Notes: a model not told the origin generated them from the letters alone. Counted from the stretch's first letter, positions 619-51,140 are shown. The stretch: DNA of 64,000 nucleotides from Candidatus Curtissbacteria bacterium (GCA_016183325.1 JACPEV010000008.1:472-64471), one strand, 5' to 3'. Translations and numbers: made by a program.

Positions 619-662
619 TTCATTTATTTCCTATTCTTTCAATTTTATGTACATTTTAAATC

Positions 663-696
663 ATCACATTTTACGACATGTCGAATTTTGTGATGG
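663..696. promoter_or_regulatory. 34-nt palindromic operator-like site, copy 2 (ATCACATTTTAYGACATGTCRAA-TTGTGATGG)
   Basis: Perfect inverted arms TCACAATT/AATTGTGA (TCACATTTT/AAAATGTGA in copy 1) around a GACATGTC core. It sits about 45 nt upstream of the cutA start, immediately after the regulator gene's stop. The twin copy is at 1307-1340. Confidence 0.45.
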
Positions 697-698
697 TA

Positions 699-2276: not shown

Positions 2277-3572
2277 TTAAGTTTTGGAAAGGTTTGTAAA
2301 AATTCCTTTGAAGTAAAAGGTTGCTCCGACTAAAAGCGAAACTGCAGCACCAAGGCCAATAGAAAAAAGGGCAGAAGTGTAGTGCGCTACTGTTCCGGCG
2401 AGAGCATTGCCTAAAGGCATCATGCCGATGAACATCGTTAAGTAAACCGCCATGATTCTGGCGCGCATTTGATCAGGGGATGCAAGCTGGACGAGGGTAT
2501 TAACAGTTGAAACCTGGGTTAACATTCCAAACCCGGAAAAAAATAACAGGACGTGGGCAAGCGCAAAATTTCTGTTAACGGAAAAGAGGATAAGACTGAT
2601 TGTTGAAATCAGGATGCCTACCATAACAAACGATATTTTATTTTCCTTTCTTGAATTTGCGGAAACAAAGACTGCTCCCATAAGACTGCCGGCACCGGTT
2701 GCGGCCAATAATGATCCAAGACCCGAAGGTCCTGAAGAAAATACTTTCTCGGCGACAGGCGGCATTAATGTTTGGTAAGGCCAGACGAAAACAGCGGAAA
2801 CAAATCCTAGAATTATGAAATATAGAATTTTAGGGTGAGTAAATGCATATTTTATTCCTTCTTTTAAGGAATCCATTGGGCTGTTAGCGTGGTCGGGTGA
2901 AAAACTATAAATCGGCCTAATTTTTATGATAGCCCAGATGCCCGCAATGAAACTCAGGCCGTTTAGAATAAACGGCCAGCCGACACCAAAAGATACGATC
3001 AGTGCTCCGGCAATAGCAGGGCCAATGAAGCGAGCGGCATTAAAAAGACCGTTATTGATTGGAATTGCGGAGGCAAGATCGCGTTTGCCGACCATTTCGA
3101 CTATGAACGTTAATCTTGCCGGTAAGTCGATCGCGGCAATCGTGCCGCTTATGAAAAATAAGAGCAAAACAAGCTCAAGGTTTGCTTTTTCAAATAGGAC
3201 TAAGACGCCTAAGGTGATGGCCACTACAGCTTCCGCAACTTGTGTCCAAATCAATAGCTTTCGCTTGTCAACTTTGTCGACAAATACTCCAACGAAAGTC
3301 GTAAAAAACAAAAATGGAAGTCCGCCTACTGCCGCCGCGGCCCCGACCCAAAAGACGGAGTTGGTCAGCAAAAAAACAAGCCAGCCGATAGCAACTTGCT
3401 GGAGCCAAAAACCGATTAAGGAAATGGCTTGGCCAAATACATAGAGCTGAAAATTCCTGTGGGCAAGCGCAGGGAATATAGAGATAATTTTTCCAGGGAG
3501 CTGTACTGGCGCCGTACCTGAAGTAAGAGCTATTTCTATATCTTCTTCAATTAGTTGATTTTCTTTTTCCAT
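2277..3572 (-). CDS. MFS transporter
   Basis: 431 aa, 12 predicted TM helices, MFS-like loop motifs (GxxxDKxDKRK). Confidence 0.7.
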   Translation of the reverse strand: MEKENQLIEEDIEIALTSGTAPVQLPGKIISIFPALAHRNFQLYVFGQAISLIGFWLQQVAIGWLVFLLTNSVFWVGAAAAVGGLPFLFFTTFVGVFVDKVDKRKLLIWTQVAEAVVAITLGVLVLFEKANLELVLLLFFISGTIAAIDLPARLTFIVEMVGKRDLASAIPINNGLFNAARFIGPAIAGALIVSFGVGWPFILNGLSFIAGIWAIIKIRPIYSFSPDHANSPMDSLKEGIKYAFTHPKILYFIILGFVSAVFVWPYQTLMPPVAEKVFSSGPSGLGSLLAATGAGSLMGAVFVSANSRKENKISFVMVGILISTISLILFSVNRNFALAHVLLFFSGFGMLTQVSTVNTLVQLASPDQMRARIMAVYLTMFIGMMPLGNALAGTVAHYTSALFSIGLGAAVSLLVGATFYFKGIFTNLSKT

Positions 3573-4430: not shown

Positions 4431-4826
4431 TTAGTTTGCGCGGACCTGGACTAGTTGGAAATAGTTGCCGTCTATATCCTCAAAGGTTGAAATCCAGCCA
4501 TAACCCTCTACGTGATAAGTATCCTGAATTTGTTTTACTTTTGCTTTCTTAAGTCTGGCCGCTTCCTTTTTAATATTATCCACTTCTAAATTGAAGATTA
4601 TTCTATCCGGGTTTTTATTTTTGCCTTTGACTTTTGAATGATCAATAACATAAATGCTGGGTCCTTTACCGAGTTTCAACTCGTAAAGTTCCTCGCCTTT
4701 TTCACCCATTACTCCCTCAAAATTAATTTCCAAACCGACTTTTTCCATATAAAAGGTTGCGAGTTTTTTGGCACTTTCGCTGAAGAGATTGATGCTTTCT
4801 AGGCTTGTGATCATAAAATTTATCAC
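4431..4826 (-). CDS. VOC-family (glyoxalase/bleomycin-resistance fold) protein
   Basis: 131 aa with a βαβββ-type pattern and conserved His/Glu positions. SD GAAGGAGGTG lies upstream. Confidence 0.5.
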   Translation of the reverse strand: MINFMITSLESINLFSESAKKLATFYMEKVGLEINFEGVMGEKGEELYELKLGKGPSIYVIDHSKVKGKNKNPDRIIFNLEVDNIKKEAARLKKAKVKQIQDTYHVEGYGWISTFEDIDGNYFQLVQVRAN

Positions 4827-4958: not shown

Positions 4959-5010
4959 AAAATAAGACATTCATTGACAAATTAATAATATAGAGAATAA
5001 TGTATGTGAG

Positions 5011-5052
5011 AAGAAAAGTTTTATTTCATAAAAGAAAAGTTTTATTTCATAA
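5011..5052. repeat. perfect 21-nt tandem duplication (aagaaaagttttatttcataa x2)
   Basis: Read directly. It ends 1 nt before the ATG at 5054. Confidence 0.6.
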
Positions 5053-5053
5053 A

Positions 5054-5467
5054 ATGGAAAAAATTGTTCAGCTTTTGGCAGACCCGAAAATTAAGATTAT
5101 TTTGATAGCCGGCCTTATTATTATTTCCTCAATCATTTATTTTGGAGTCAAAAATCCCCAAATTGAAAATGCGACGGTTGTTAGTCAAACTTCTTCCCCG
5201 TCACCACAGACACCGGCCCCTGAAATTGATGCGGAAATTTTGAAAAACGCCCTGAATCTTTATATTGACAAAAGAGCGGAGAGTATAGACTTGAAAGATG
5301 GTCCATGTCTGGGCAAAATCGCAGAAGATTGGGTTTTGGACATTGCACACAGACCCCGAACTGCCGTTGATGATCTTCCGGAAAATCAGTGCGCGGACTT
5401 TCGCGAAGGCCGCGCTCATCACTTTATAGAACTTGACCCTGACGGACAATTAATCAGAAGCTTTTAA
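5054..5467 (+). CDS. hypothetical membrane-anchored protein
   Basis: Start MEKIVQ chosen after the tandem duplication. N-terminal TM segment, then a Pro/Ser linker and a C-terminal domain containing Cys residues. Confidence 0.35.
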   Translation: MEKIVQLLADPKIKIILIAGLIIISSIIYFGVKNPQIENATVVSQTSSPSPQTPAPEIDAEILKNALNLYIDKRAESIDLKDGPCLGKIAEDWVLDIAHRPRTAVDDLPENQCADFREGRAHHFIELDPDGQLIRSF

Positions 5468-6057: not shown

Positions 6058-6288
6058 GTGTCTCGCATCATACCAATCCACTACCGCAAATTAGTTAAAG
6101 TTTTCGAGAAGGATGGCTGGAAATTCCATAACCAGACAGGTAGTCACATTCATTTCGTAAAGTCGGGGTTCGAAAGACCTGTGACGATCCCAACATACAA
6201 ATTAGTCCCTGTTTTTATAATTAAGAACAATATGGAAACTGCAAAAATGTCAAGACAGCGATACTTGGAACTTTTACAAAAAGTTTAG
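6058..6288 (+). CDS. hicA: HicA-family mRNA interferase toxin
   Basis: YRKLVKVFEKDGWKFHNQTGSHIHFVKSGFERPVTIPTYK matches the HicA/YcfA dsRBD-like motif (GW…GSH). GTG start. Confidence 0.6.
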   Translation: MSRIIPIHYRKLVKVFEKDGWKFHNQTGSHIHFVKSGFERPVTIPTYKLVPVFIIKNNMETAKMSRQRYLELLQKV

Positions 6289-6321
6289 ACTAGCGGATTT
6301 GACGAAAGAAAATGGGAATTA

Positions 6322-6963
6322 CTAAGTAGTCTTCGTCTTTTGTGTTTCAGGCTCTATTTTTTTAATAGTTATAAAGCTTTTAAGTACAGTGTCGTACATG
6401 TCATGAAAGTTCATAAGTGAAATTACTAGAGAATACAGAATGCAAAAAATGAATATCGTGTAATTTATTTTTATATCCGTTGCAGGTAATTCTATTTTAG
6501 TTTGGTTAAAAATTAAATCATTAATTATAAGCGAAATCGATAGAGCGAAGAATATGTTTGACCAGAAAGCAAATCTTGCAGAGAAATACTCAGGTAATCT
6601 TTCTCGACCTACGCTTGCTAAGTAATTGTGCATTAGGTAAAAATTATTTACAGTATCACCTGGTTTCTTTCGATTAATTTTTTTTAACTCTGAAACTGCT
6701 GCATCATATAAATCTAAATCGCTAAACTTTATCCATAAAAATATGATTTTATTGAGGAAAATTTGTCTGAGAAGTTTAGTAAGAGACTGAAATATAAAAC
6801 CCATAAATAATCCAAACGCTATTAATAGAAGAATCTTAAGAGCATTACCAGCGGTAGCGCTTTCTATATTAATTATTTTTAAGTTTCTATCGTTAATGTA
6901 GAAAAAAAGCAGACCGGGAATTATATTATAGAAAAAACCAATCACTGAGTTTAGATTATCCAT
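6322..6963 (-). CDS. hypothetical polytopic membrane protein (very AT-rich)
   Basis: 213 aa with five or more TM helices. Composition is lower-GC than its neighbours. Confidence 0.35.
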   Translation of the reverse strand: MDNLNSVIGFFYNIIPGLLFFYINDRNLKIINIESATAGNALKILLLIAFGLFMGFIFQSLTKLLRQIFLNKIIFLWIKFSDLDLYDAAVSELKKINRKKPGDTVNNFYLMHNYLASVGRERLPEYFSARFAFWSNIFFALSISLIINDLIFNQTKIELPATDIKINYTIFIFCILYSLVISLMNFHDMYDTVLKSFITIKKIEPETQKTKTT

Positions 6964-6983
6964 TTTTTTTCTATAACTATTAC

Positions 6984-7007
6984 GTCCACTCCCGATGTGA
7001 ATTAGGT
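6984..7007. promoter_or_regulatory. conserved 24-nt motif CCACTCCCGATGTGAATTAG, copy 1
   Basis: It lies 20 nt upstream of the 6322-6963 gene start. On the transcribed strand it reads TAATTCACATCGGGAGTGG and contains a -35-like TTCACA. Confidence 0.35.
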
Positions 7008-7070
7008 TGACACATTTCAGCTACTCGTCGGTAGATTAGGTCTTATCCCTCTTCAAGAAATTGCTTTTTC

Positions 7071-7631
7071 TCAAGATGCTATTTCGCACTGCCTTACTTC
7101 AATAACACCTATTGTTTGTGTACCAACGACTCCACGGACCGTAACTGTTTGGCCATTTTTGAGTGGTAAGAGTTGGGTTTTATCTTCAACACGGCAACTG
7201 ATTTGGGTTAGTGAAAAGTCTTTCGTGGCTACATTATGGAATGATATCCCCGATTCTGTGATATTTGAGATTGTGGCCGAAAACTCGACAAACTTATCTT
7301 TCCACTTTACTTCGGCTGCTACCTGATTAGCGTCGAAGTCATCAGCCAGATCCCTTACGGCAATTTTCATCGGTGTTGGTTTAGGTAACTCTTGCTGTAC
7401 TTCACTTTTGGGTTGTTGAGTAGTTGAGGAAGTGGCTGTATCTTTCTTCTGACTGCTACTACCGGTCACAAATAACCCTACTACCGGTGGTATTACTACA
7501 AAAGCTAAAATTAGAGCCAATATCGGGTGTCGTGCTGGCCAGCTTCTAAGATCAGTTTGGCAATGAGGGCATTTTTTGGCCTTCGCATCAATTTCCGACT
7601 GGCAATCCTTACATTTTTTTGTTGCTTCCAT
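7071..7631 (-). CDS. zinc-ribbon / TM / OB-fold (tRNA_anti-like) protein
   Basis: N-terminal CKDCQ…CPHCQ zinc ribbon, one TM segment, a Ser/Thr/Gln linker and a C-terminal β-rich OB-like domain. Confidence 0.4.
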   Translation of the reverse strand: MEATKKCKDCQSEIDAKAKKCPHCQTDLRSWPARHPILALILAFVVIPPVVGLFVTGSSSQKKDTATSSTTQQPKSEVQQELPKPTPMKIAVRDLADDFDANQVAAEVKWKDKFVEFSATISNITESGISFHNVATKDFSLTQISCRVEDKTQLLPLKNGQTVTVRGVVGTQTIGVIEVRQCEIAS

Positions 7632-7740
7632 GTTTCACCTCCTTCGGCAGATTACCTCTTGGACAATATAGTAACTAATTTAGGCCGACATATCAATCAT
7701 TTTAGTACTTTTTATTGTCTTTGCGCTAATAGAATTTTAC

Positions 7741-7766
7741 ATCCACTCCCCGATGTGAATTAGCTT
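7741..7766. promoter_or_regulatory. conserved motif CCACTCCCCGATGTGAATTAG, copy 2
   Basis: 23 of 24 positions match 6984-7007. It lies about 110 nt upstream of the 7071-7631 gene start. Confidence 0.35.
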
Positions 7767-7770
7767 GGAA

Positions 7771-8331
7771 TCAGATCTGAATTTGAATTTGTGTCTGTGA
7801 TTTTAGAAGGCCAGAAGTGGCATTTCTTACTCTTGTAACCAAATCAGGTTCTTCCCCTCGATACTTTATTTCTATTGAAATTTTAGTTATTTCAATTGTT
7901 CCTTGCCTATCTTCTAACACCCACTCAGCTTTTTGAAGTTGGGCAACAACTCCTTCGTTTCCTCGATCAGCTCCCTCTTGGTTTATCTGCTCACGTAACA
8001 AAGGATCTCTTTCTCGATTGTATCTGTCCCGCCAATCTTGAGCCTTTTGCTCTCTTTCCTGCGCGTCTCTTAGGAGCTTTAAAATATCGGCCTTCGTTCC
8101 TCCTTCAAGCTTGAAGCCGCCAAATTGAAGGGGGTCGAAAGTTGCCCTACCTTGAATCCCGATACTTTCAAATACTCTCTCAAACGAGTTTCTGAATAGA
8201 TCAGCTTTGGCTTCACCGAATAAATATATCGTGACTCTTGTTGGCTCAGGAAGTACAGCAAGTACACGTTCAATGTTCTCGTGAGGGATCTCTGGAACAC
8301 TTCTTATGCTTCTAATTGCCTCTCTATCCAT
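7771..8331 (-). CDS. hypothetical protein
   Basis: 186 aa, charged and Arg/Glu-rich, higher GC than its neighbours. Family not recognised. Confidence 0.3.
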   Translation of the reverse strand: MDREAIRSIRSVPEIPHENIERVLAVLPEPTRVTIYLFGEAKADLFRNSFERVFESIGIQGRATFDPLQFGGFKLEGGTKADILKLLRDAQEREQKAQDWRDRYNRERDPLLREQINQEGADRGNEGVVAQLQKAEWVLEDRQGTIEITKISIEIKYRGEEPDLVTRVRNATSGLLKSQTQIQIQI

Positions 8332-8382
8332 TGTGAGGGAAAAATATCATGAATCATGCTTTTTGTCAAAAGAAAAACTGAA

Positions 8383-8530
8383 AGCGCCGCGCAATAGATA
8401 AACGCGACGTAAAATATTTAGCTTCAATTAGCCTCAATAATACAAAGGGGCAAAAATTGTCAATTTTAGAATTTAGCCCTTCCACTTTGCTCAGGATCTA
8501 TGATCTCGACTCCCCTGTCGATACCATTCC
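8383..8530. repeat. ~150-nt intergenic repeat family, copy R1
   Basis: Aligns with 10183-10327 (…ttagcctc-a-aata…ttttagaatttagcccttc…actcccctg-t-g-tacc). It begins with gcgccgcgcaat. Confidence 0.5.
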
Positions 8531-8600
8531 AAAGTTTTATCTCATTCATTTGGACGTATATTGTTTGTGACAATTGAAGACTGGCTGGTATAATTAATCT

Positions 8601-8897
8601 ATGAAAACGAATGTTGAGCAAATTAAAGAGACTTTAGACCAAAACATGAAACTTCTTAGGGACAAATATGGTGTAAAACAACTCGGGGTGTTTGGCTCAG
8701 TCTCTCGCGGAGAAAATATTGAAACAAGTGATATTGATTTACTTGTTGAATTTTCAAAGCCAATCGGTCTTTTTAAATTTATCGAGCTAGAGGAATATCT
8801 TGGTGAACTTTTAGGTAATAAGGTCGATCTAGTCACAAAGGACGCCCTAAAACCAGCAATCAAAGAAGATGTTCTAAGGGAAGTGATTTATGTCTAA
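8601..8897 (+). CDS. mntA: MntA-type nucleotidyltransferase antitoxin
   Basis: GVFGSVSRGENIETSDIDLLVEF matches the GSxxRG…DxD minimal NTase motif. It overlaps hepT by 8 nt. Confidence 0.75.
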   Translation: MKTNVEQIKETLDQNMKLLRDKYGVKQLGVFGSVSRGENIETSDIDLLVEFSKPIGLFKFIELEEYLGELLGNKVDLVTKDALKPAIKEDVLREVIYV

Positions 8898-9228
8898 AAA
8901 GAGATATAGAGTTTATCTAGACGATATATTAACTTCGGTAGAAAGAATAAAAGATTACACAAAGAATTTATCCAAAGAAGATTTTCTCAAAGATCTGAAA
9001 ACTATAGATGCTGTTGTGAGAAACATCGAAATACTAGGCGAAGCGGCAAGAAATATTCCAGAAGATTTTAAAGAAAAATATCCCGAACTTCCATGGTCAA
9101 AAATGATAAGTATGAGAAACAAGGTGATTCACGAATATTCAGGGATTGATCTTGAAATACTTTGGCAAACGGTCCAAGAGGATATACCAAGCCTAGAAGA
9201 TCAGGTTAAAGAATTAGTAGAAAATTGA
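8890..9228 (+). CDS. hepT: HepT-type (DUF86) toxin
   Basis: RNKVIHEY matches the Rx4HxY motif near the C-terminus. 112 aa. Confidence 0.75.
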   Translation: MSKKRYRVYLDDILTSVERIKDYTKNLSKEDFLKDLKTIDAVVRNIEILGEAARNIPEDFKEKYPELPWSKMISMRNKVIHEYSGIDLEILWQTVQEDIPSLEDQVKELVEN

Positions 9229-9245
9229 GGCAACTTATCGAATCT

Positions 9246-9336
9246 GCCTGAGGAATGTGGGAATTCCTAAGTCGTCTACCATTTTTAGGTTCAAAACCAA
9301 TCAATAACTCCAAGAATGTATTAAGCCATTCTTCAG
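9246..9336 (+). repeat. decayed copy of the ftsZ 3' end (att-like direct repeat, copy 1) plus hairpin ccaagaatg…cattcttc
   Basis: ttatcgaatctgcctgaggaatgtgggaattcc matches ttatctaatttgtctgaggaatgtggggatgtc at 13614-13646 in 27 of 33 positions, same orientation. It is about 85% identical to 11042-11142 over roughly 85 nt. Confidence 0.55.
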
Positions 9337-9400
9337 TTCTCAAAAGGTAAGACTAGAATAACCAATAGTAGGGAAAATAGCAACAAGTTTAAAGGCTGCT

Positions 9401-9769
9401 CTAGGGAGTAGGCTGGCTTGCCTGTGGCTTGTTACTTGAAAATTGACCAAAAAGGTCAGAAAGATTTTTGATCTGATCAGAAGATAAGCTAGTTTTGATA
9501 TCATCAAACCATTCACTCAATAAGGCATCGTATTCATTTTGAAAGGCTTGCTCTAGCTGCTCTGCACTAGCCACTTGATCTATTGAGGGATTTGTATCGG
9601 TGGTGGCACTTTCTTCGAAAACTTGTAACTTTTCTTGAGGAATTTCCTGTAACATTTTTGTAGCGGTTCTTTGCTTGATTGTTGTAAAAAAATCCTCTAC
9701 GAATGCTTCTTTATCGTCTTGATACCCAATTATCTCAAGAATTTTTAAAATAAACTCTTTTCTTTGCAT
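9401..9769 (-). CDS. hypothetical acidic protein
   Basis: 122 aa, no recognisable family. Adjacent to 9772-10128. Confidence 0.3.
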   Translation of the reverse strand: MQRKEFILKILEIIGYQDDKEAFVEDFFTTIKQRTATKMLQEIPQEKLQVFEESATTDTNPSIDQVASAEQLEQAFQNEYDALLSEWFDDIKTSLSSDQIKNLSDLFGQFSSNKPQASQPTP

Positions 9770-9771
9770 TA

Positions 9772-10128
9772 TTAGCTTCTTTTTGTAAATCTTCCTTTTT
9801 CATCTCTAGGTTGTTCATATCTGTGAGGAAAAAACCTTCGACTACCTCCAAGAATGAAGTAATTAGCTCCTACCGCTGATGAAATAAGTCCAGCTGCCTT
9901 TACAATATCTCCTTCAGCAATAGCAATGGACCCGAACGTGGCGGCAGCAGAATCCAGCGCAGTCATAAAAACAAGACCAGCTTTTGTCAGTCCAGTTTTA
10001 TTCTCTATAACCTGCAAGGCATTTTTTGCTGATGTCGTTGCTTTTTCTAAAAAAGATTTTGACGAATCTGTAGGAGATTTTTCGGAAAGACCTTGATTTT
10101 CGCTAAATTCACTGTTACCTTCGCTCAT
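9772..10128 (-). CDS. hypothetical protein
   Basis: 118 aa, Ala/Gly-rich central region. No family recognised. Confidence 0.3.
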   Translation of the reverse strand: MSEGNSEFSENQGLSEKSPTDSSKSFLEKATTSAKNALQVIENKTGLTKAGLVFMTALDSAAATFGSIAIAEGDIVKAAGLISSAVGANYFILGGSRRFFPHRYEQPRDEKGRFTKRS

Positions 10129-10182
10129 TACATATATTATAACATTTTCTTACTTAATACGATTTTTAAAAAAGCGTCGCAC

Positions 10183-10327
10183 AATTATGTTTGTGCGCCT
10201 ATGAAAAATTAGTCTCGTTTAGCCTCGAAAATAAATAGTCGCAAAACGGGTGGTTTTTAAATTTTAGCCCTTCGATAAACTCTGGATTTTCAGCCTCAAC
10301 TCCCCTGCTCGGACTACCCTGTAGTTT
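10183..10327. repeat. ~150-nt intergenic repeat family, copy R2
   Basis: See 8383-8530. It begins gcgtcgcacaattatgtttgtgcgcc, a hairpin also found upstream of hicB. Confidence 0.5.
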
Positions 10328-10329
10328 TC

Positions 10330-10710
10330 CTATCGGAGCGGATTTAGGGTTTTTATGTCTTGCATGGGGAAATGCTTGGTATTCAGAGAGACCAGTTCAA
10401 GATCGTTTACATTGGCACAACCAGCAATTAAACAATCATCTAAGGTGAGATTTTTTAGTTGTTTTGAGTATTGCTGGCAGTAGAGACCGCCAATTTTTGC
10501 GGTTTTTTGGTCTAGATTGAAAATTATATGCTGGTTTAAAAAATCCTCCGTAGTTGACAATTCAGATGGAAAAACATTTCTGAAAATTTCTGCGATTGAA
10601 ATAACGGATATTGCCAGTGGTGATTTTTCTTTGAGTTTTGAGACTTTCTCTTTAACATCCTTTTTGCCTCGCAAAATCCAAATTAAGATATCTGTGTCTA
10701 GGAGAAACAT
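10330..10710 (-). CDS. vapC: VapC PIN-domain toxin
   Basis: MFLLDTDILIWILRG… carries the PIN acidic residues (D5, E, D). 126 aa. Confidence 0.75.
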   Translation of the reverse strand: MFLLDTDILIWILRGKKDVKEKVSKLKEKSPLAISVISIAEIFRNVFPSELSTTEDFLNQHIIFNLDQKTAKIGGLYCQQYSKQLKNLTLDDCLIAGCANVNDLELVSLNTKHFPMQDIKTLNPLR

Positions 10711-10713
10711 TAT

Positions 10714-10992
10714 TTAGAATGTTCGTTGGTTTTTGATGCGATTATTCTTGACCCAATCTATTACTTTCTTCTTTGTAGCCCATTCGGGATGATTTTTAGC
10801 AGTAAAAACACCGCTTGCTTTCCTAAGCGCTCTTTCATACGCGTCTTTGTCAAAAGTAAAGGTCTGAGTTATTTGGGCAATAGTCTTATTCTTTTTTTCG
10901 TCACGAATGAGCACACGGTTTCCTTTTATTACTTTATCCAAATAGCCAGATATATTTTTCCTGAGCTCGCTCACAGATACTGTTAGGGTCAT
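10714..10992 (-). CDS. Phd/YefM-like antitoxin partnered with VapC
   Basis: The N-terminus SVSELRKNISGYLDKVIKGNRVLI is Phd/YefM-like. A 4-nt spacer separates it from vapC. Confidence 0.6.
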   Translation of the reverse strand: MTLTVSVSELRKNISGYLDKVIKGNRVLIRDEKKNKTIAQITQTFTFDKDAYERALRKASGVFTAKNHPEWATKKKVIDWVKNNRIKNQRTF

Positions 10993-11041
10993 ATTTTCAT
11001 ATTAGTACAATATGTACAGATAGTCAATTATTGAGGAAGGA

Positions 11042-11142
11042 TTATCGAATTTGACGAAGGAATGTGGGGATTCCTAGGTCGTCTATCCTATTTAGGTTCA
11101 AAGTAGTTAAGACTGCCAAGAATAACGATTGTCATTCTTGGG
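11042..11142 (+). repeat. decayed copy of the ftsZ 3' end (att-like direct repeat, copy 2) plus hairpin ccaagaat…attcttgg
   Basis: gaaggattatcgaatttgacgaaggaatgtgggga matches gaaggtggttatctaatttgtctgaggaatgtgggga at 13605-13641. Confidence 0.55.
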
Positions 11143-11495
11143 TCATAAAAGATAGGTTAATACTAACCAATAGGTCAAGAAATATCAACAAGCTTCAGCA
11201 TTAGCCAGCTGAAGGTAAATATCGTATAATTTAACTGTGAAATACAAGTTTACAGCTTTAACCTTGTTTGTAGTTTTACTGTTGGGTATTGCCCTAGAAT
11301 TTAGCGAAAGTAAAGAGCACTTCAACACAGATAGAATTTCGATAATCCCTCTCAAGTTAGAAATTCCGAAACAACCACATGAACCAGTTCAGCAATATCC
11401 CATAACTCAAATTAGGTTGTCTGGCATGGCAAATATTGGAACTTCATCTATCAACCCAACGAGAATAAATTCTTCTGGAACAAATTTAACCTAAG

Positions 11496-11873
11496 ATGAA
11501 ATCAAAAGTAGAGACACAAAACGCACCAAGTGCCCCTGGTCTTTTGTCACAAGCAGTTGTAAATAATGGAATTATCTATGTAGCAGGCCAAATACATAGC
11601 TCTCCTAATGGAAAGTTAGTCGAAGGAACAACTGAAGCTAAAGTAAAACTGATAATGAAAAATTTACAAGCTATTCTTAAAGCTGCTGGTGCAGATTTTG
11701 ATGATGTACTTAAAGTAAATGTGTATGTCACGGATATTTCAGACTTACCTAAACTAAACGCAATTTATAAAACTTATTTCACGCAGGAACCTTTACCAGT
11801 TCGTGAAGCTGTTTGTGTTAAAGCCTTGCCACTTGGTGCAAGTATTGAAATGAGTTTAATGGCAGCAAAGTAA
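11496..11873 (+). CDS. ridA: RidA/YjgF-family reactive-intermediate deaminase
   Basis: 125 aa with the typical YjgF signature (…VYVTDISDLPKLNAIYKTYF…PVREAVCVKALPLGASIEM). Confidence 0.8.
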   Translation: MKSKVETQNAPSAPGLLSQAVVNNGIIYVAGQIHSSPNGKLVEGTTEAKVKLIMKNLQAILKAAGADFDDVLKVNVYVTDISDLPKLNAIYKTYFTQEPLPVREAVCVKALPLGASIEMSLMAAK

Positions 11874-11972
11874 TAAGTTAGGCTGTTAAGAATCAGTACG
11901 GTACACCCCTACCCACCCAGTTTTTCTGTATCCCAAAACCTATTAGACCTCGAATAAATCTGCGATGTGATT

Positions 11973-12755
11973 TTAGGTTTGACTGAAGAATCTAGCTATC
12001 ATATCCACCACTTCAGATTCATAGGGCTCATCGTGAAATCCGTGCTTTGACCCCTTGATAACGCGAAACTCCTTGCTGGCGTTAGATAACTCATCAAATC
12101 TATGTTGCACATGTCTAATGTCAACTTTTTCATCTCGGCTACCATGAACAGCAAGTAGCGGACCCATATAATTTTCCAACTCTTGGTACGGATAATAACT
12201 TCTCATTTCATCTATTAGGGGTTTACCCATTTTGAATCTCCTTGAGGCTACTTCAATAAAACCAAATCTTTTTAATCTATCGGTTAAATTGATAAATGTT
12301 CTCATTGCCCAAACCGTGGTTGGGTGTAAAAATGCTTTATCGTAATCGAGCACGGGATTTGCCAAGAACAGCATCTGAACTGCATCTGGATTGCGTCCGG
12401 CATATAGGGCAGCAATACTGCCGCCAAAGCTGGCACCTGCCAGACCTAACCAGTCAATTCCCTTTGCTCTCATAAAATCAACAACTGCTCCCAAATCTCT
12501 TACCTCACCAGAAATAGTGAAGTCCCTAATTGAATCTCCAGAACTTTTACCATGTGCCCTGAAATCAAACCTGATAGTAGAAAACCCGAGTCTATTTAGT
12601 TCTGGTTCTGCACGAACAAATATTCCTTCGTCATCTTTATTTACAGTCATTCCATGAGCAAAAATTATCCCTTTCGAGGAATCTTCGACTTGGATAAATA
12701 CTCCATCCAAACTAAACTTATCCGCAGTTTTTATTTTTATATCTTTACGCTCCAT
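11973..12755 (-). CDS. alpha/beta-hydrolase (dienelactone-hydrolase-like)
   Basis: GxSxG nucleophile elbow (LAGASFGGSIA) and a C-terminal His (GSKHGFHD). Confidence 0.65.
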   Translation of the reverse strand: MERKDIKIKTADKFSLDGVFIQVEDSSKGIIFAHGMTVNKDDEGIFVRAEPELNRLGFSTIRFDFRAHGKSSGDSIRDFTISGEVRDLGAVVDFMRAKGIDWLGLAGASFGGSIAALYAGRNPDAVQMLFLANPVLDYDKAFLHPTTVWAMRTFINLTDRLKRFGFIEVASRRFKMGKPLIDEMRSYYPYQELENYMGPLLAVHGSRDEKVDIRHVQHRFDELSNASKEFRVIKGSKHGFHDEPYESEVVDMIARFFSQT

Positions 12756-12816
12756 AATTTATTTAATCCCATTAAAAGGTACAGATTTGCTTTGTCCGAA
12801 ATTTAAAATCTTTGAT

Positions 12817-13245
12817 TTAGATTGAAATAATGATTTCTTCTTCTTTTCTGTTGAATAATACCTTATGGCACTTGTCGAAAAAGCCATTTTGACCCAAAAG
12901 CGGAATTTGCTGTTGGTAGCTAAAATAGGCGTTTGTTTCGATTTTGTGGCCTTCTATAAAAATTCCGATGCCTTCATGAAGGAAGCTGTCAATCTGGATA
13001 TCGCCAATTCCTGCGATTTTGTGTTTTTTGCCCTTTGGAATATTAATTCCTAACTTTTCTCCAAGTGATGCTGGGAATAAATTGACGCTCGCTCCTGAAT
13101 CGACAAGTGCCAGAACATTGAACATCTGTCCTCTTTTGTAATTAATAACAACGTCGATCAACGGAATGGGAACGTAAATTACTTTTTCATTTTGCTGTCG
13201 TGGAGCTTGAAAATATCTAAATTTGTGAGCGGACATCAAGGACAA
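12817..13245 (-). CDS. retropepsin-like (clan AA) aspartic protease, cassette 1
   Basis: LALVDSGASVNLFP matches the D-S/T-G-A catalytic motif. A likely true start is the Met at 13236, whose ATG overlaps the upstream stop (TGATG). Confidence 0.6.
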   Translation of the reverse strand: MSLMSAHKFRYFQAPRQQNEKVIYVPIPLIDVVINYKRGQMFNVLALVDSGASVNLFPASLGEKLGINIPKGKKHKIAGIGDIQIDSFLHEGIGIFIEGHKIETNAYFSYQQQIPLLGQNGFFDKCHKVLFNRKEEEIIISI

Positions 13246-13430
13246 TAGGGCACTAGAGGGGGAACTGCCATAAAAATTACTTTTTCCCTATCAACTTTTT
13301 TTGATACTTCCTCAAGGCTTTTTCCGTGGGCAACTATTTTTGTCTTATTTTTATCCAGAGCTACCCACTGCTTTGCATATTTTTCTAATCCTTTAATTGG
13401 TTTCTGTTTCATAAACCTATTATACTCCAA
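13236..13430 (-). CDS. small partner protein of the retropepsin cassette (KYxxxWVAL…V-A-G motif)
   Basis: 64 aa; KYAKQWVALDKNKTKIVAHGKSLEE aligns with the 61746-61943 product (KYKGKWVALKDDEKTVVASGSTAKE). Translationally coupled to the protease. Confidence 0.5.
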   Translation of the reverse strand: MEYNRFMKQKPIKGLEKYAKQWVALDKNKTKIVAHGKSLEEVSKKVDREKVIFMAVPPLVPYCP

Positions 13431-13440
13431 TTTTCAAATG

Positions 13441-13549
13441 AACTACCACGACTTAACAGTCGTGGTATCCTCAGGCTACGCCTTCGGCGAGTACGTAATT
13501 GTTCAATTCACCCACGGGTAAAAACCCGTGGTACTTGCGAACAATTATA
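13441..13549 (-). repeat. structured three-hairpin element, copy B (inverted relative to copy A at 206-311)
   Basis: About 95% identical to the reverse complement of 206-311. It lies between the ftsZ stop and the cassette 1 start. Confidence 0.5.
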
Positions 13550-13615
13550 AATCCTGAATCCTTAACAGGTCGGAGTCGTTAGACTCCAGACAAGTCCAGG
13601 ATGACAAGAAGGTGG

Positions 13616-14695
13616 TTATCTAATTTGTCTGAGGAATGTGGGGATGTCGAATTCATCCTCGTCGATTGAGGTTGGAGTTTCTTCAGAAGGTTGAGCTGTC
13701 TCCCCATCTTGCTGAGGAGTCACCTGAACGAACTTTCGTCTGGTTTCATCAAAACCTGTGGCAATAACTGTGACTTTAACCTGGTCGATGAGCTTTTCGT
13801 CGATAGTGGCACCAAAGATAATTTGGGCATCGGGATCGGCTTGACTGGTGATGACTTTGGCAGCTTCGTCAACTTCACTCATGGTCATATCGCTACCGCC
13901 AGTGATGTTGAAAAGAATGCCTCTTGCGCCGTCGATTGACGAATCTAAAAGCGGTGAGGCAATAGAAGATCTGGCTGCAGTTGATGCTCGATTTTCACCA
14001 GAGGCGGTACCTACACCCATCAATGTTGTACCGGCACTGGTCATGATAGTCTTAACATCGGCAAAATCAACGTTGATTAAGCCCGGCATGACGATGATAT
14101 CTGAAATTCCCTGAACACCTTGAGAAAGAACAGAGTCGGCAAGTTTAAACGCCTCAAGGAGAGAAACGTTCTTATCGACAACTTCAAGTAATTTTTGATT
14201 GGGAATAACAATCAACGTGTCGACTTTGTCTTTAAGACTTACAATGCCATCATCGGCGACAACCATGCGGCGAGTACCTTCAAATCCAAAAGGTTTGGTG
14301 ACTACGGCAACAGAAAGAATACCAAGTTTTCTCGCCAGCTCGGCAATAACTGGACCAGCACCTGTCCCGGTACCTCCTCCGGCACCGTAAGTTAGAAAAA
14401 CCATGTCGGCACCAGTTATTACTTCTTTGATGCGCTCTAAAGATTCTTCTGCAGCTTTTTTGCCAATCTCAGGGTCGGCACCTGCCCCAAGACCCTTGGT
14501 CAGGCCATCGCCGATTTGAACTTTAGTTTGAGCTTGATTTGCCAAGAGATGTTGTTGATCAGTGTTAACAGCCACAAAATCTACACCTTGGATTTGAGCA
14601 TTGGCGATCATGGAGTTTAAAGCATTGCAGCCACCTCCACCAATGCCAAGAACTTTTATTTTGGCGAATCTATTGACGTCGGGTTTAATTAACAT
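13616..14695 (-). CDS. ftsZ: cell-division GTPase FtsZ
   Basis: GGGTGTG tubulin signature, NTDQQ, acidic C-terminal tail …DEDEFDIPTFLRQIR. Confidence 0.95.
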   Translation of the reverse strand: MLIKPDVNRFAKIKVLGIGGGGCNALNSMIANAQIQGVDFVAVNTDQQHLLANQAQTKVQIGDGLTKGLGAGADPEIGKKAAEESLERIKEVITGADMVFLTYGAGGGTGTGAGPVIAELARKLGILSVAVVTKPFGFEGTRRMVVADDGIVSLKDKVDTLIVIPNQKLLEVVDKNVSLLEAFKLADSVLSQGVQGISDIIVMPGLINVDFADVKTIMTSAGTTLMGVGTASGENRASTAARSSIASPLLDSSIDGARGILFNITGGSDMTMSEVDEAAKVITSQADPDAQIIFGATIDEKLIDQVKVTVIATGFDETRRKFVQVTPQQDGETAQPSEETPTSIDEDEFDIPTFLRQIR

Positions 14696-14758: not shown

Positions 14759-16036
14759 TTACGGCAAGAGTGATTTAATCCAGTTAATACCTTTGTTAAC
14801 TACACCTTTTATTTCGATTCTTCCTACCAGAGGAAGTCTGACTTCTTCCTGTTGAAATTGAGTACCGTAGATAACTAGCCCAAGAGCAGCAGCAAAAGCC
14901 GGCGAGGCAATTTCATCAACAAGGCCTGTTGCGCCTTGCGGCAAGCCGAGCCTAACGGGCATCCCGAGTTCTTGCTTGGCGATATCAATCATACCAACTG
15001 TCGATGCTCCCCCGCCAGTTAAAACTACGCCAGAAGGAGTAAGACCAGTTGCGCCTGATTTTTGAAGCTCGAGTTTAACCATGTTGATAATTTCGCGAAT
15101 TCTAGGTTTAATGATTCCATCACTAAGAGTTTTTCTGGAAACTTGCCTTAAATCTTCCTCAATACCAAGGCCTGAAATATCTAAGTTATCTGGTTCTTTT
15201 TTATCTTGAGCCTTCCCGTTTGCACTGGATTCAACGGCGATTTTAGGAGGCTGAGACAGAGCAAGTTTAATTTTTTCAGCGGATTCAAGGGAGATGCGCA
15301 AGCCGATTGCCAAATCGTTGGTTACGTTTCTGGCGCCAATAGGTAGAACAGAGCAATAGGCGGGAGCTCCATCGGTGAAAACACAGATGTCAGTGGTACC
15401 ACCTCCGAAATCTACTAAGATTACTCCGAGTTCCTTTTCAGTATCAGTTAAAACTGAATAGGAGGAAGCAAGACCAGAAAAGACCATCCCTTCGACGTCA
15501 ACACCAACCTGACTAATGCATTTGGCGATATTTCTGAAAGCGGTGGCTGCACCGGTGACAATATGAGTTTCAACCTCCATCCTGACACCGTTCATGCCAA
15601 TTGGATCTTTAATACCGCTTTGGGAATCGACAACAAAATATCTCGGGATGACATGAAGAATTTCTCTAGACGAAGGTAAAGATATTGCCCTGGCAGCTTC
15701 AACTACTCTAGTAACATCTTCTGCTGAAATCTCTCCGTTTCTTTCAGAAACAGCAACGACTCCTTTGCTATTTTGTGAATCAATGTGAATACCGTCAACT
15801 GAAACGAAAGATGCACCAACTGAATACCCAGCCATTCTCTCAGATGATTCCAAAGATTGAGTTATGGAAGTAACGGCTTCATCAATATCGACAACCTGGC
15901 CTTTTCTTAAACCTCTTGAGGGAACCGAGGAAACTCCAATTATATTAACCTGGGACTCATTCTGGATGGTAGCAATAATGGTGGTAATCTTCGACGATCC
16001 AACATCAATACCAACAATAACTTTATCTTTAGACAT
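14759..16036 (-). CDS. ftsA: cell-division protein FtsA
   Basis: Actin-like ATPase motifs (VGIDVGSSKI, DFGGGTTD). 425 aa. Confidence 0.9.
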   Translation of the reverse strand: MSKDKVIVGIDVGSSKITTIIATIQNESQVNIIGVSSVPSRGLRKGQVVDIDEAVTSITQSLESSERMAGYSVGASFVSVDGIHIDSQNSKGVVAVSERNGEISAEDVTRVVEAARAISLPSSREILHVIPRYFVVDSQSGIKDPIGMNGVRMEVETHIVTGAATAFRNIAKCISQVGVDVEGMVFSGLASSYSVLTDTEKELGVILVDFGGGTTDICVFTDGAPAYCSVLPIGARNVTNDLAIGLRISLESAEKIKLALSQPPKIAVESSANGKAQDKKEPDNLDISGLGIEEDLRQVSRKTLSDGIIKPRIREIINMVKLELQKSGATGLTPSGVVLTGGGASTVGMIDIAKQELGMPVRLGLPQGATGLVDEIASPAFAAALGLVIYGTQFQQEEVRLPLVGRIEIKGVVNKGINWIKSLLP

Positions 16037-33152: not shown

Positions 33153-33157
33153 AAGTT

Positions 33158-33268
33158 TGTATCTTCCCCTTACGGGCTTGGATGTGGCACCTTCTTTGAC
33201 TTTTTGAGACAAAGGGTTGCCAGACGGATCATTGGGCCAAGTCCCATACCGTCATTCTCGATACTTTG
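33158..33268 (-). ncRNA. SAM-I (S-box) riboswitch aptamer controlling metK
   Basis: The minus strand reads UAUCGAGAAUGACGG…GGGACUUGGCCCAAUGAUCCGUCUGGCAACC…AAGGUGCCACAUCCAAGC…GGGGAAGAUA. This matches the S-box core elements (GGGA-CUGGCCC-AUGA-CCC-GCAACC, AAGGUGC-AA-UCC, closing P1 UAUC/GAUA). The terminator follows. Confidence 0.7.
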
Positions 33269-48871: not shown

Positions 48872-49728
48872 TTCTCCAAAAGTCTTTTTAGCTGTTCGTT
48901 AGCTTCGTCGGGGGAAATAGTTGATTCTGCAGGTCTGTAAAGTCTTGTGTCTCCTTTGTGAAATATCCTGCGATCGATTAATTTTTGTTCTCCTTCTTGA
49001 TTAACTAAGAAAATTTCTAAAAATGTATTGCTTTTTTCATCGACTTTTGGTTGAAAAGCTAGCTCTTTTCCGTAAGACGTTCGTATTTCTTTATTATTTA
49101 ATACGACGGCTTTACCTCTAACCATTCCTATATGAAAGCTGTCTGTTCGAGTGAAATTCCACGTCCAAAATTCTTTCAGCATGTGTGGTTCTATCTCTTT
49201 TCTTCCACCGAGGTAATCTAAAAAAATCTGTCTTTCAAAACCATGCCAACTTTCTACTTTTAGGTTTTGAGCGTCAATCCTAAACGATTGAATTAGTTCA
49301 TTAAAATCTACTACATCCCTTAATCCTAATTCGTGGAAATCAATCCATTGATATAATTTATTTTCGTCTTCTCTAGGAAAAGCTAAGATTATTCCGCTGT
49401 TGCGGATAATTTTTTGCGATAATGGATTGAGGCTAAAGATTACTGTCCTTCCTTGAATTCTGCCACCTATGTAAAATCTTGTTCCGACTTTATTATCACC
49501 TCTGGCTTCTTCTATCAAAAACGGTGGAATTTCTTCAAAAGGAAATCTTCCTCTGAGAAAAGCGTGCAGAAAAGCTACGCCCTCCTCCTGGTCTACTGCG
49601 TATATGGGTGAAGGTTTCCATGGATCTGGCTCTACTTGCGAAGGATCAGACCTGTCTCCCAATTCCAAATCTATTATTTTAATGAATCGTTTACTATTGG
49701 GACTTTTTGGTTGCATCTCTGGATTCAT
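48868..49728 (-). CDS. hypothetical protein with shared C-terminal tail (…TISPDEANEQLKRLLEN); island gene 2
   Basis: 286 aa. The upstream gene's final GAGGAA (Glu-Glu) codons form the SD, and its TAA stop overlaps this ATG (TAATG). Confidence 0.5.
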   Translation of the reverse strand: MNPEMQPKSPNSKRFIKIIDLELGDRSDPSQVEPDPWKPSPIYAVDQEEGVAFLHAFLRGRFPFEEIPPFLIEEARGDNKVGTRFYIGGRIQGRTVIFSLNPLSQKIIRNSGIILAFPREDENKLYQWIDFHELGLRDVVDFNELIQSFRIDAQNLKVESWHGFERQIFLDYLGGRKEIEPHMLKEFWTWNFTRTDSFHIGMVRGKAVVLNNKEIRTSYGKELAFQPKVDEKSNTFLEIFLVNQEGEQKLIDRRIFHKGDTRLYRPAESTISPDEANEQLKRLLEN

Positions 49729-50973: not shown

Positions 50974-51140
50974 TTAATGATATATGGATAATTTTTGCGC
51001 AAGTTCTTTTTGGAGATTTTCGACCTTCACTCTTTCTTGTTTAGCCGTATCACGATCCCGAATCGTGACGGTGTCGTCTTCGAGTGTCGCAAAGTCTATG
51101 GTTATGCAGTAGGGTGTTCCGATTTCGTCCTGGGTGGAGC
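50974..51140 (-). pseudogene. displaced 3'-terminal fragment of glycine--tRNA ligase (att-like duplicate; right island boundary)
   Basis: The minus strand encodes …[52 protein letters not shown]. The intact glyS ends …[49 protein letters not shown]. Nucleotide identity is about 85% over ~110 nt. The fragment has no start codon. Confidence 0.65.

What the first reader, a model, noticed from the sequence alone, without database searches (positions are those of the whole stretch)
9246..13660. Two decayed direct copies of the ftsZ 3' end upstream of the intact one: serial insertions behind ftsZ
Positions 9246-9336 and 11042-11142 are ~85% identical to each other over ~85 nt. Their first ~35 nt match the last codons plus stop of ftsZ (13605-13646; 27 of 33 and 30 of 36 identities) in the same orientation. 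The segments between successive copies carry cargo-like genes: two hypotheticals and vapBC in one, and a small ORF, ridA, a hydrolase, retropepsin cassette 1 and the structured element in the other. This mirrors the glyS architecture and suggests that the 3' ends of essential genes (ftsZ, glyQS) are used as integration sites in this genome.
Basis: seen in the sequence. Interest (0 to 1): 0.65.

Follow-up and report, generated by a model that had tools for sequence, protein, structure and literature searches.

The report
Mobile-element insertion scars behind ftsZ
Behind the cell-division gene ftsZ of this Curtissbacteria (CPR) genome lie three gene cassettes, each ending in a spare copy of the ftsZ 3' end; these copies are the footprints of mobile elements whose dedicated integrase, found next to ftsZ in related genomes, inserts into the last codons of ftsZ and supplies replacement codons.

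Summary
ftsZ (13616-14695, minus strand) ends ...DIPTFLRQIR*. There are three same-orientation copies downstream, not two: 11035-11218, 9225-9401, and a decayed one at 6283-6348.

The first two match the ftsZ tail at 28 and 29 of 36 bases; the maximum in 300 shuffles was 26. They encode DDLGIPTFLRQIR*, and every base difference within IPTFLRQIR* is synonymous.

Each copy is a hybrid. A roughly 150-nt sequence unrelated to ftsZ (promoter-like hexamers, a hairpin) is joined at ATYCCCAC to an ftsZ-like tail.

The same unit bounds different cargo behind ftsZ in relatives. The tail variant travels with the cassette downstream of it.

A Xer-like tyrosine integrase sits after a displaced tail in one relative. 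In 7 of 7 sampled homologues from several CPR lineages it starts 160-235 nt after the ftsZ stop. In three genomes a displaced tail closes the element.

So these are att sites left by serial site-specific insertion into the FtsZ C-terminal peptide codons. The window's three cassettes (vapBC, MNT-HepT, RidA, hydrolase, retropepsin-like) carry no integrase.

This is a new member of a known kind, with an apparently undescribed target.

The parts
13616..14695 (-). ftsZ, 359 aa, ending ...DEDEFDIPTFLRQIR*. This is the target gene.
   Evidence: ORF list. It is 83-86% identical to FtsZ of Curtissbacteria relatives. ftsA lies upstream at 14759-16036.
13616..13651 (-). Current ftsZ tail, read as an attL-type junction: ftsZ-derived left half (TTCGACAT), shared core ATCCCCAC (plus-strand 13638-13645), then FLRQIR* codons inferred to be element-borne.
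   Evidence: Sequence. In relatives the tail variant is linked to the downstream cassette. The window tail CAAATTAGATAA resembles the L082 tail CAAATTAGGTAG, which precedes the same DUF5678/retropepsin cassette.
11219..13615 (.). Cassette A, nearest ftsZ and so inferred to be the newest. Contents: structured insertion 13436-13600; DUF5678 13236-13430 (-); retropepsin-like 12817-13245 (-); alpha/beta hydrolase 11973-12755 (-); RidA 11496-11873 (+); 85-aa ORF 11237-11494 (+).
   Evidence: Pfam. The DUF5678 plus retropepsin genes are 80% identical in amino acids to L082, where they directly follow a displaced tail copy.
11035..11218 (-). Displaced copy 2, an attP-like site: promoter-like TTGATA-17-TAGTAT, hairpin CCAAGAAT/ATTCTTGG, then TTG AAC CTA ... 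GAC GAC CTA GGA ATC CCC ACA TTC CTT CGT CAA ATT CGA TAA.
   Evidence: nhmmer E = 7e-44; translation; promoter scan. Its tail plus the vapB promoter/operator matches L101 and L111.
9402..11034 (-). Cassette B: Phd-like antitoxin 10714-10992, PIN VapC 10330-10710, hypothetical 9772-10128, DUF5663-like 9401-9769.
   Evidence: Pfam. The vapBC pair is 47-56% identical in amino acids to the vapBC directly behind ftsZ in L101. A Phd/PIN pair follows the displaced tail in L111.
9225..9401 (-). Displaced copy 1, an attP-like site: TTGCTA-17-TATTCT, hairpin AAGAATG/CATTCTT, then mini-ORF LNLKMVDDLGIPTFLRQIR*.
   Evidence: nhmmer E = 2e-40; translation; 92% identical over 40 nt to the L001 copy.
6349..9224 (.). 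Cassette C: HepT 8890-9228 (+), MNT nucleotidyltransferase 8601-8897 (+), hypothetical 7771-8331 (-), tRNA_anti-like/zinc-ribbon protein 7071-7631 (-), 213-aa membrane-like ORF 6322-6963 (-).
   Evidence: Pfam.
6283..6348 (-). Terminal, decayed displaced copy (EDYLVIPIFFRQIR*). It is probably what remains of the oldest ftsZ tail.
   Evidence: the repeat finder D1; translation; nhmmer E = 9.5e-6. Beyond it the conserved flank begins: 5000-5467, glyoxalase 4431-4826 and MFS 2277-3572 are syntenic with L099 and L001.

Best explanation
The copies are attachment-site scars of a family of integrative elements that insert into the last codons of ftsZ. The crossover is inferred at ATC CCC AC/GC, the Ile-Pro-Thr/Ala codons of the conserved FtsZ C-terminal peptide.

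The incoming element carries, on one side of its attP, replacement codons for (T/A)FLRQIR plus a stop, so FtsZ stays intact. On the other side it carries a conserved arm of about 150 nt. After insertion, the old tail is pushed to the far end of the element, now preceded by that arm. Repeated insertion gives an array of the form ftsZ | cassette | arm+tail | cassette | arm+tail ...

The recombinase is a 336-343 aa Xer-like tyrosine integrase, encoded immediately behind ftsZ in intact elements of relatives.

In this window the array holds three cassettes (A, B, C) with toxin-antitoxin and accessory genes and no integrase. They are therefore either remnants that lost the integrase or cassettes mobilisable in trans, like CIMEs.

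Shown: the repeats, their anatomy, their coding conservation, the linkage of tail variants to downstream cargo, the integrase-ftsZ association, and flanking repeats around integrase-bearing elements.

Inferred: the recombination itself, the exact crossover point, the order of insertions, and any present-day mobility of the window's cassettes.
For: (1) Four same-orientation copies, significant by shuffling and by profile search.

(2) Hybrid anatomy. Upstream of ATYCCCAC the displaced copies resemble each other, not ftsZ. Downstream of it they encode the FtsZ tail.

(3) The same arm (92% identical over 40 nt) bounds unrelated cargo in L001, which carries a GmrSD_N gene. It also occurs in metagenome contigs L082, L083, L099, L104 and L109.

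(4) Ten intact tails differ by at least 20 codon changes, all synonymous. This is expected if each tail served as a real FtsZ C-terminus.

(5) The tail variant is linked to the downstream cassette. TTCCTGCGTCAGATAAGATAAC(C/T)TCTATTT precedes the integrase in L111 and L110, where it is the live ftsZ tail, and in L101, where it is a displaced copy. CAAATTCGATAA plus the TGTACATAATGTAC promoter/operator region precedes vapB in L101 (live tail), L111 (displaced) and window copy 2.

(6) The integrase matches Pfam Phage_integrase at 3e-29. It has 332 homologues at E<=1e-10. Seven of seven sampled, from Curtissbacteria, Gottesmanbacteria and other CPR, start 160-235 nt after the ftsZ stop on the same strand. 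Their cargo varies and is often phage- or plasmid-like: HTH_3, DnaB_C, Phage_CRI, Phage_capsid, Zeta toxin.

(7) Integrase-bearing segments are closed by a displaced tail in three genomes: L111 (7.7 kb), L110 (3.9 kb) and L122 (9.4 kb). In L122 the copy reads L*IPAFLRQRS*, differs from the live tail only synonymously, and is followed by chromosomal flank.

(8) Terminal copies next to the conserved flank are the decayed ones: window 6290 and L099.

(9) The distant CPR genome L004 shows the same architecture with a different tail.
Against: - There is no integrase or integrase fragment in the 64-kb window (tblastn), so mobility of these particular cassettes is not shown.
- No empty ftsZ site and no circular junction were observed.
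- In L101 the live ftsZ core reads CCAACTTT, against CCCACATT in the displaced copy. Either it mutated after insertion or the history is more complex, for example insertion into an internal site.
- The integrase family is unusually conserved (at least 64% identity among the top 120 hits) and has a constant position. Taken alone, that could suggest a host gene rather than a mobile one.
- The conserved arm has features that simple recombination does not require: promoter-like hexamers, a hairpin, and an in-frame TTG/ATG start.
Confidence: 0.85

Rival explanations
1. The displaced copies are functional mini-genes. A promoter in the arm drives a 19-codon ORF, (M)NLNR[VI]DDLGIPTFLRQIR, whose product mimics the FtsZ C-terminal peptide and competes for FtsA or other partners. 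It would act, for example, as a division brake expressed from attP-like sites.
For: - Conserved -35/-10-like hexamers with a fixed 17-nt spacer of variable sequence.
- A TTG or ATG is kept 13 codons before the core in most Curtissbacteria copies.
- The arm-encoded DDLG keeps the acidic patch typical of genuine C-terminal peptides, although reconstituting ftsZ does not require it.
- Copies 1 and 2 in the window have intact ORFs whose differences are all synonymous.
Against: - About half of the displaced copies are broken. L001a has a frameshift; L001b has lost its start and has a truncated tail; L083 has a decayed tail; L099 has a frameshift; L110 has a stop inside DDLG; window 6290 has no start.
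- The Gottesmanbacteria copy has a stop directly before IP and no start.
- There is no consistent ribosome-binding site.
- The synonymous-only pattern is equally explained by each tail having been a live FtsZ end.
- My metagenome pattern required an intact DDLGIPT coding sequence, which biases the sample towards intact copies.
Confidence: 0.07
2. The copies arose locally, without any mobile element. Tandem duplication or unequal crossing-over of the ftsZ 3' end occurred, and unrelated genes were later gained between the copies.
For: Direct repeats in one orientation next to the source gene.
Against: - The roughly 150 nt upstream of the core in each copy is not ftsZ sequence.
- That upstream sequence is shared with other genomes that carry different cargo.
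- The tails differ from the resident ftsZ at many synonymous sites and co-vary with the downstream cassette across genomes.
- A dedicated integrase sits at this site in relatives.
Confidence: 0.03
3. The array is an assembly chimera. Several strain variants, each with one cassette behind ftsZ, were concatenated through the shared repeat.
For: The source is probably a metagenome-assembled genome. Logan contigs with the identical FtsZ all break 50 nt after the stop codon.
Against: - The copies are only 66-85% identical to each other, too divergent to be collapsed or bridged by an assembler.
- Multi-copy arrays recur in independent assemblies: the L001 arrangement is seen identically in about ten metagenome contigs, and the L111 arrangement in four.
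- The Logan breaks are adequately explained by the two-copy 114-nt element that starts 67 nt after the stop.
Confidence: 0.03

Closest known systems
Prophage e14 / phage 21 integration into the 3' end of icd in Escherichia coli (from my own knowledge, not tested here)
   Same: A tyrosine integrase inserts into the 3' end of an essential or conserved protein-coding gene. The element carries a substitute 3' end that keeps the reading frame and differs largely at synonymous sites. The displaced original end remains as a pseudo-copy at the far side of the element.
   Different: - The target here is ftsZ, and only about 9 codons are replaced. Those codons are the FtsA-binding C-terminal peptide.
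- The hosts are CPR bacteria.
- The integrase is a short Xer-like protein.
- The sites occur in multi-copy arrays, and the cassettes in the window have no integrase.
ICESt1/ICESt3 and CIMEs at the 3' end of fda in Streptococcus thermophilus: site-specific accretion and cis-mobilisable elements (from my own knowledge)
   Same: Tandem accumulation of elements at one protein-gene 3' end, separated by att-type repeats. Some units lack integrase and are bounded only by att sites related to those of an integrase-bearing element.
   Different: - No conjugation genes were seen. Cargo in the window is toxin-antitoxin and small accessory genes.
- Mobilisation in cis or trans is untested.
- The internal sites carry a conserved arm of about 150 nt with promoter-like and hairpin features.
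Genomic islands in tandem at tRNA/tmRNA genes (from my own knowledge)
   Same: The integrase gene lies next to the target gene's 3' end, the 3' fragment is directly repeated at the island's far end, and serial arrays form with older copies further away.
   Different: The target is a protein-coding sequence, so the replacement must preserve a peptide. This shows up as synonymous-only divergence.
Integron cassette arrays
   Same: An ordered array of cassettes separated by structured recombination sites. New units are presumably added at the proximal end by a Xer-like tyrosine recombinase.
   Different: - There is no intI, attI or Pc in the window.
- The related integrase scores far below the integron-integrase cut-off (62.5 bits against 265).
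- The cassettes hold several genes, on both strands, with their own promoters.
- The sites are not attC-like.

Membership tests
Site-specific integrative element / genomic island at the 3' end of a gene (tyrosine-integrase type) | Direct repeats (attL/attR) derived from the target gene's 3' end flank the inserted DNA. | tested here: met
   Four same-orientation copies in the window. Flanking copies surround integrase-bearing elements in L111, L110 and L122.
Site-specific integrative element / genomic island at the 3' end of a gene (tyrosine-integrase type) | An integrase gene lies inside the element, next to an att site. | tested here: not met
   No integrase homologue in the window (tblastn; Pfam on cassette ORFs). 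The feature is met in relatives: L101, L110, L111, L115-L122, L126 and L127. The window's cassettes are therefore integrase-less derivatives or satellites, not complete elements.
Site-specific integrative element / genomic island at the 3' end of a gene (tyrosine-integrase type) | The target gene's reading frame is restored by element-borne sequence. | tested here: met
   ftsZ is intact. Tail codon variants co-vary with the downstream cassette across genomes. All tail differences are synonymous.
Site-specific integrative element / genomic island at the 3' end of a gene (tyrosine-integrase type) | Presence is variable among relatives, with empty sites in some. | tested here: inconclusive
   Cargo behind ftsZ differs in every relative examined, while the flanks ftsA-ftsZ and glyoxalase-MFS are conserved. 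No unoccupied ftsZ site was found among close relatives.
Site-specific integrative element / genomic island at the 3' end of a gene (tyrosine-integrase type) | Excision to a circular form, and integrase-dependent recombination. | not testable with these tools
   This needs read-level data or an experiment.
CIME-like cis-mobilisable cassettes / accretion arrays | Units are bounded by att sites of a related integrase-bearing element, lack their own integrase, and are arranged in tandem. | tested here: met
   Window cassettes A, B and C are bounded by arm+tail units homologous to the attR of the L111 and L110 integrase elements.
CIME-like cis-mobilisable cassettes / accretion arrays | Demonstrated mobilisation by the partner element. 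| not testable with these tools
   Indirect evidence only. The vapBC cassette occupies position 1 in L101 and position 2 in L111 and the window.
Integron | An IntI-type integrase with adjacent attI and Pc, plus attC-bounded, mostly single-gene promoterless cassettes in one orientation. | tested here: not met
   No integrase in the window. The related integrase scores 62.5 bits against a 265-bit cut-off for integron integrase. The cassettes hold several genes on both strands.
Elements exploiting host Xer recombination at dif (IMEX) | Insertion at a dif site by host XerC/D, with the element lacking its own recombinase. | tested here: not met
   The site lies inside the ftsZ coding sequence. Intact relatives encode their own recombinase within the flanking repeats. 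That recombinase scores below the XerA/XerC/XerD equivalog cut-offs.

The most novel reading that the evidence does not exclude
The attP-like internal sites are more than scars. The conserved promoter-like arm may express the 19-codon ORF (M)NLNRVDDLGIPTFLRQIR, a free copy of the FtsZ C-terminal peptide. That peptide would titrate FtsA or other partners and so couple cell division to the state of the element, for example by pausing division while the element is excised or when several sites are present.
Probability: 0.07. Interest if true: 0.85.

Novelty: new member of a known kind. Interest (0 to 1): 0.55.

Why it matters
- It identifies the 3' end of ftsZ, specifically the codons of the FtsA-binding C-terminal peptide, as a dedicated integration hotspot in CPR/Patescibacteria.
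- It identifies a large, tightly conserved Xer-like integrase family that uses this hotspot. Mobile elements of these uncultured, reduced-genome bacteria are poorly charted.
- It gives a simple genomic landmark for finding their prophages, plasmid-like elements and defence/toxin-antitoxin islets.
- The elements must supply a working piece of an essential division protein. They are therefore a natural experiment on which residues of the FtsZ tail are indispensable.
- Four full-text searches found no report of ftsZ as an attachment site. That library is incomplete, so this is not proof of novelty.

Tried and rejected
- Rfam. The gathering-threshold scan of the whole window found only a SAM riboswitch at 33156-33267. 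The permissive scan of 9150-9450 gave only chance-level hits.
- tRNA/tmRNA scan: none in the window, so this is not a tRNA-type att site.
- Viral contig scan with the arm-core pattern: no match.
- Metagenome pattern scan: 13 of 29 hits are chance matches inside an unrelated conserved gene. Its translation, RGDRMWEFLDRL...PRIRDFRG, looks like ribosomal protein L5 by my own knowledge. I discarded these hits.
- Covariation in the arm hairpin: 86% of cells are paired, but only one pair changes on both sides, and 65 of 500 shuffles score as well. The hairpin is conserved, but covariation does not prove it.
- Integrase search in the window: none.
- Population variation, using contigs that encode the identical FtsZ: all three break 50 nt after the stop, which is uninformative.
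The real glyS repeat is 50986-51139 against 51883-52036.
- A perfect AGGAAT-N6-ATTCCT inverted repeat around the core can be reconstructed for the Curtissbacteria attP. The Gottesmanbacteria site does not show it clearly, so I do not rely on it.

Full report
**What is in the sequence**

ftsZ lies on the minus strand at 13616-14695, with ftsA upstream at 14759-16036. Its product ends ...DEDEFDIPTFLRQIR*, the conserved C-terminal peptide of FtsZ.

The repeat finder groups the ftsZ end with three further same-orientation copies, at 11042, 9235 and 6290 (family D1).

Read on the minus strand, the copies encode:
- 11042: LNLNRIDDLGIPTFLRQIR*
- 9235: LNLKMVDDLGIPTFLRQIR*
- 6290: EDYLVIPIFFRQIR*, out of frame with the end of ORF 6322-6963

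**Significance**

Against the last 36 nt of ftsZ, the copies at 9235 and 11042 have 29 and 28 identities. In 300 shuffles of the window, the best match on either strand averaged 22 and never exceeded 26.

A profile built from displaced copies of several genomes finds:
- window 11035-11218, E = 7e-44
- window 9225-9401, E = 2e-40
- window 6283-6348, E = 9.5e-6
- the ftsZ end itself, E = 0.009
- nothing else in the window

Within IPTFLRQIR*, the three intact window sequences differ by 7 substitutions, all synonymous. Ten intact tails from five genomes differ by at least 20 codon changes, all synonymous, where about 25% would be expected by chance.

**Anatomy of a displaced copy**

Alignment of the copies from the window, L001 and metagenome contigs shows a unit of about 190 nt. 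In ftsZ sense it contains:
- Two promoter-like hexamers (TTGCAA/TTGCTA/TTGATA, then TATTCT/TAGTAT) with a fixed 17-nt spacer of variable sequence. The promoter scan calls the one in copy 2.
- A hairpin, CCCAAGAATG-loop-CATTCTTGGG. It is paired in 86% of cells, but covariation is not significant.
- TTG or ATG, then AAC CTA AAx ... GAC GAC YTA GGA ATY CCC ACA TTY, followed by the Leu-Arg-Gln-Ile-Arg-stop codons.

Upstream of ATYCCCAC the copies resemble one another, not ftsZ. Downstream of it they encode the FtsZ tail. This is the structure of an att-type hybrid site.

**Organism and relatives**

The closest genome is Candidatus Curtissbacteria RIFOXYA1_FULL_41_14 (L001; FtsZ 83% identical).

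In L001 the unit occurs twice behind ftsZ, at 12650-12835 and 14374-14471. Both have decayed tails. The first cassette holds a GmrSD_N-domain gene. Synteny with the window resumes only at the glyoxalase and MFS genes, where window 4431-4826 and 2277-3572 correspond to L001 15685-17380.

A metagenome scan with the arm-core pattern gave these results:
- The L001 arrangement, in about ten contigs.
- Six further variants: L082, L083, L099, L101, L104 and L109.
- In L099, a decayed copy sits just before homologues of window 5000-5467, the glyoxalase and the MFS gene. This makes the window's 6290 copy the terminal one.
- In L082, a copy is followed directly by DUF5678 plus retropepsin genes 80% identical to window 12853-13413, without the window's 114-nt structured element.

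**The integrase**

L101 has an FtsZ 86% identical to the window's. Its order is ftsZ, vapB-vapC (47-56% identical to the window's vapBC), a 298-aa gene, a displaced copy, and then a 338-aa tyrosine recombinase (Pfam Phage_integrase, 3e-29).

The recombinase is Xer-like but scores below the XerA/XerC/XerD and integron-integrase cut-offs. It matches PHROG_1 integrases. By eye its sequence carries the R...K...HxxR...H...Y residues.

It has 332 homologues at E<=1e-10, and the top 120 are all at least 64% identical. I looked up seven of them, from Curtissbacteria, Gottesmanbacteria and other CPR. In all seven the gene starts 160-235 nt after the ftsZ stop on the same strand.

Their cargo varies and includes:
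- HTH_3 repressors
- a DnaB_C/AAA_25 protein
- Phage_CRI
- a Phage_capsid fragment
- TerB_N
- Zeta toxin
- KAP NTPase
- RnlA-like and Macro proteins

**Both ends of intact elements**

| Genome | Element length | Far end | What follows |
|---|---|---|---|
| L111 | 7.7 kb | arm + DDLGIPTFLRQIR* at 15380-15537 | vapBC |
| L110 | 3.9 kb | decayed copy, HD*GIPTFLRQIRKPK* | not examined |
| L122 (Gottesmanbacteria) | 9.4 kb | L*IPAFLRQRS*, synonymous-only differences from the live tail FDIPAFLRQRS* | DUF2079 and EamA flank |

In each genome, attL and attR share only ATCCCC(A/G)C. I take this as the likely crossover region. This is an inference.

**Which side brings the tail**

The tail TTCCTGCGTCAGATAAGATAAC(C/T)TCTATTT precedes the integrase in L111 and L110, where it is the live ftsZ end. 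It also precedes the integrase in L101, where it is a displaced internal copy.

The tail ...CAAATTCGATAA, followed by the TTGACTAT(T/C)TGTACATA(A/T)TGTACTAATAT promoter/operator, precedes vapB in L101 (live end), in L111 (displaced) and in window copy 2.

So the codons after the core belong to the cassette downstream of them. This is what an attP-borne replacement end predicts.

**Interpretation for the window**

The array reads:

ftsZ | A (structured insertion, DUF5678, retropepsin-like, hydrolase, RidA, small ORF) | copy 2 | B (vapBC, two hypotheticals) | copy 1 | C (HepT-MNT, three hypotheticals) | decayed terminal copy | conserved flank

No integrase or integrase fragment is present. The cassettes are therefore integrase-less, comparable to cis-mobilisable elements in accretion arrays. 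Whether they still move is unknown.

The distant CPR genome L004 shows the same principle with a different tail...DDKWDIPAFLRQKN*, then a 376-aa ORF that I did not annotate, then ...DAWDIPAFLRNRN*.

**Rivals**

A decoy-peptide reading cannot be excluded. In it, the promoter-like arm expresses the 19-codon ORF. About half of the displaced copies are broken, and the Gottesmanbacteria copy has a stop directly before IP. I give this reading about 7%.

Local duplication without a mobile element does not explain two findings: the arm is not ftsZ-derived, and it is shared between genomes.

An assembly chimera is unlikely. The copies are only 66-85% identical to each other, and the arrays recur in independent assemblies.

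**Comparison and novelty**

From my own knowledge, the closest analogues are e14/phage 21 in icd, ICESt1/CIME accretion at fda, and tandem islands at tRNA genes. The principle is known.

The target, the integrase family and the CPR host range are not described in any paper I could find. That library is incomplete.

I rate it a new member of a known kind, interest 0.55.

Noticed in passing
window 13436-13549 and 205-318 (with extra hairpins to about 13600): A 114-nt element occurs twice in inverted orientation at 96% identity. Each copy lies just downstream of a stop codon: ftsZ, and an ORF ending at 198. It folds very strongly (z = -6.8 and -7.1). It has no Rfam match, is absent from all fetched loci, and is absent from the homologous cassette in L082, so it is a recent small insertion (MITE-like or an RNA gene)..
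   Followed up: partly
window 50986-51139 vs 51883-52036: The last ~45 codons of the class II glycyl-tRNA synthetase gene (51880-53409, minus strand) are repeated 0.9 kb downstream with coding conserved: [36 protein letters not shown] retropepsin-like gene (51228-51899) lies between. This is the same architecture as at ftsZ. Relatives and a recombinase were not examined..
   Followed up: partly
window 45530-50843: Four consecutive minus-strand genes (664, 448, 286 and 371 aa). All four share the C-terminal motif ISPDEANEQLxxLLE*; three of them also share an N-terminal R/D-x-GGRIRW motif (the 286-aa product does not show it). They have no Pfam family apart from a weak HTH_29 hit. This is a paralogous family of unknown function, not att repeats..
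   Followed up: partly
window 8413-8482 and 10204-10273: A 70-nt intergenic direct repeat (71% identity), with one copy in cassette C and one in cassette B (TTAGCCTC...TTTTAGCCCTTC). Unexplained..
   Followed up: no
window 654-697, 1298-1341, 62553-62596: A 44-nt palindrome-containing repeat (ATCACA...TGTGAT). Two copies flank the PaaX_M/Cas2-like ORF 699-1295, and a third lies 61 kb away..
   Followed up: no
window 10993-11034; L101 and L111 upstream of vapB: The vapB promoter region with the palindrome TGTACATAATGTACA is conserved in three genomes directly after the ftsZ-type tail. It is probably the VapB operator..
   Followed up: no
L004 7395-8714: In a distant Patescibacteria genome, a 376-aa ORF (CorC/CNNM-like by eye; no domain search run) sits between the live FtsZ tail (DDKWDIPAFLRQKN*) and a displaced tail (DAWDIPAFLRNRN*). 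No integrase was seen within the ORFs listed..
   Followed up: partly
L007 13305-13661 (minus strand): A fragment homologous to the N-terminal 118 residues of the ftsZ-associated integrase (44.5% identity) lies about 2.2 kb downstream of ftsZ in another Patescibacteria genome. It is probably an integrase remnant..
   Followed up: no
L123-L125 (Logan contigs with identical FtsZ): All three contigs end exactly 50 nt after the ftsZ stop. The two-copy 114-nt element probably causes this, but strain heterogeneity behind ftsZ is not excluded..
   Followed up: no
window 33156-33267 (minus strand): A SAM riboswitch at the gathering threshold (44.7 bits against 44.4)..
   Followed up: no
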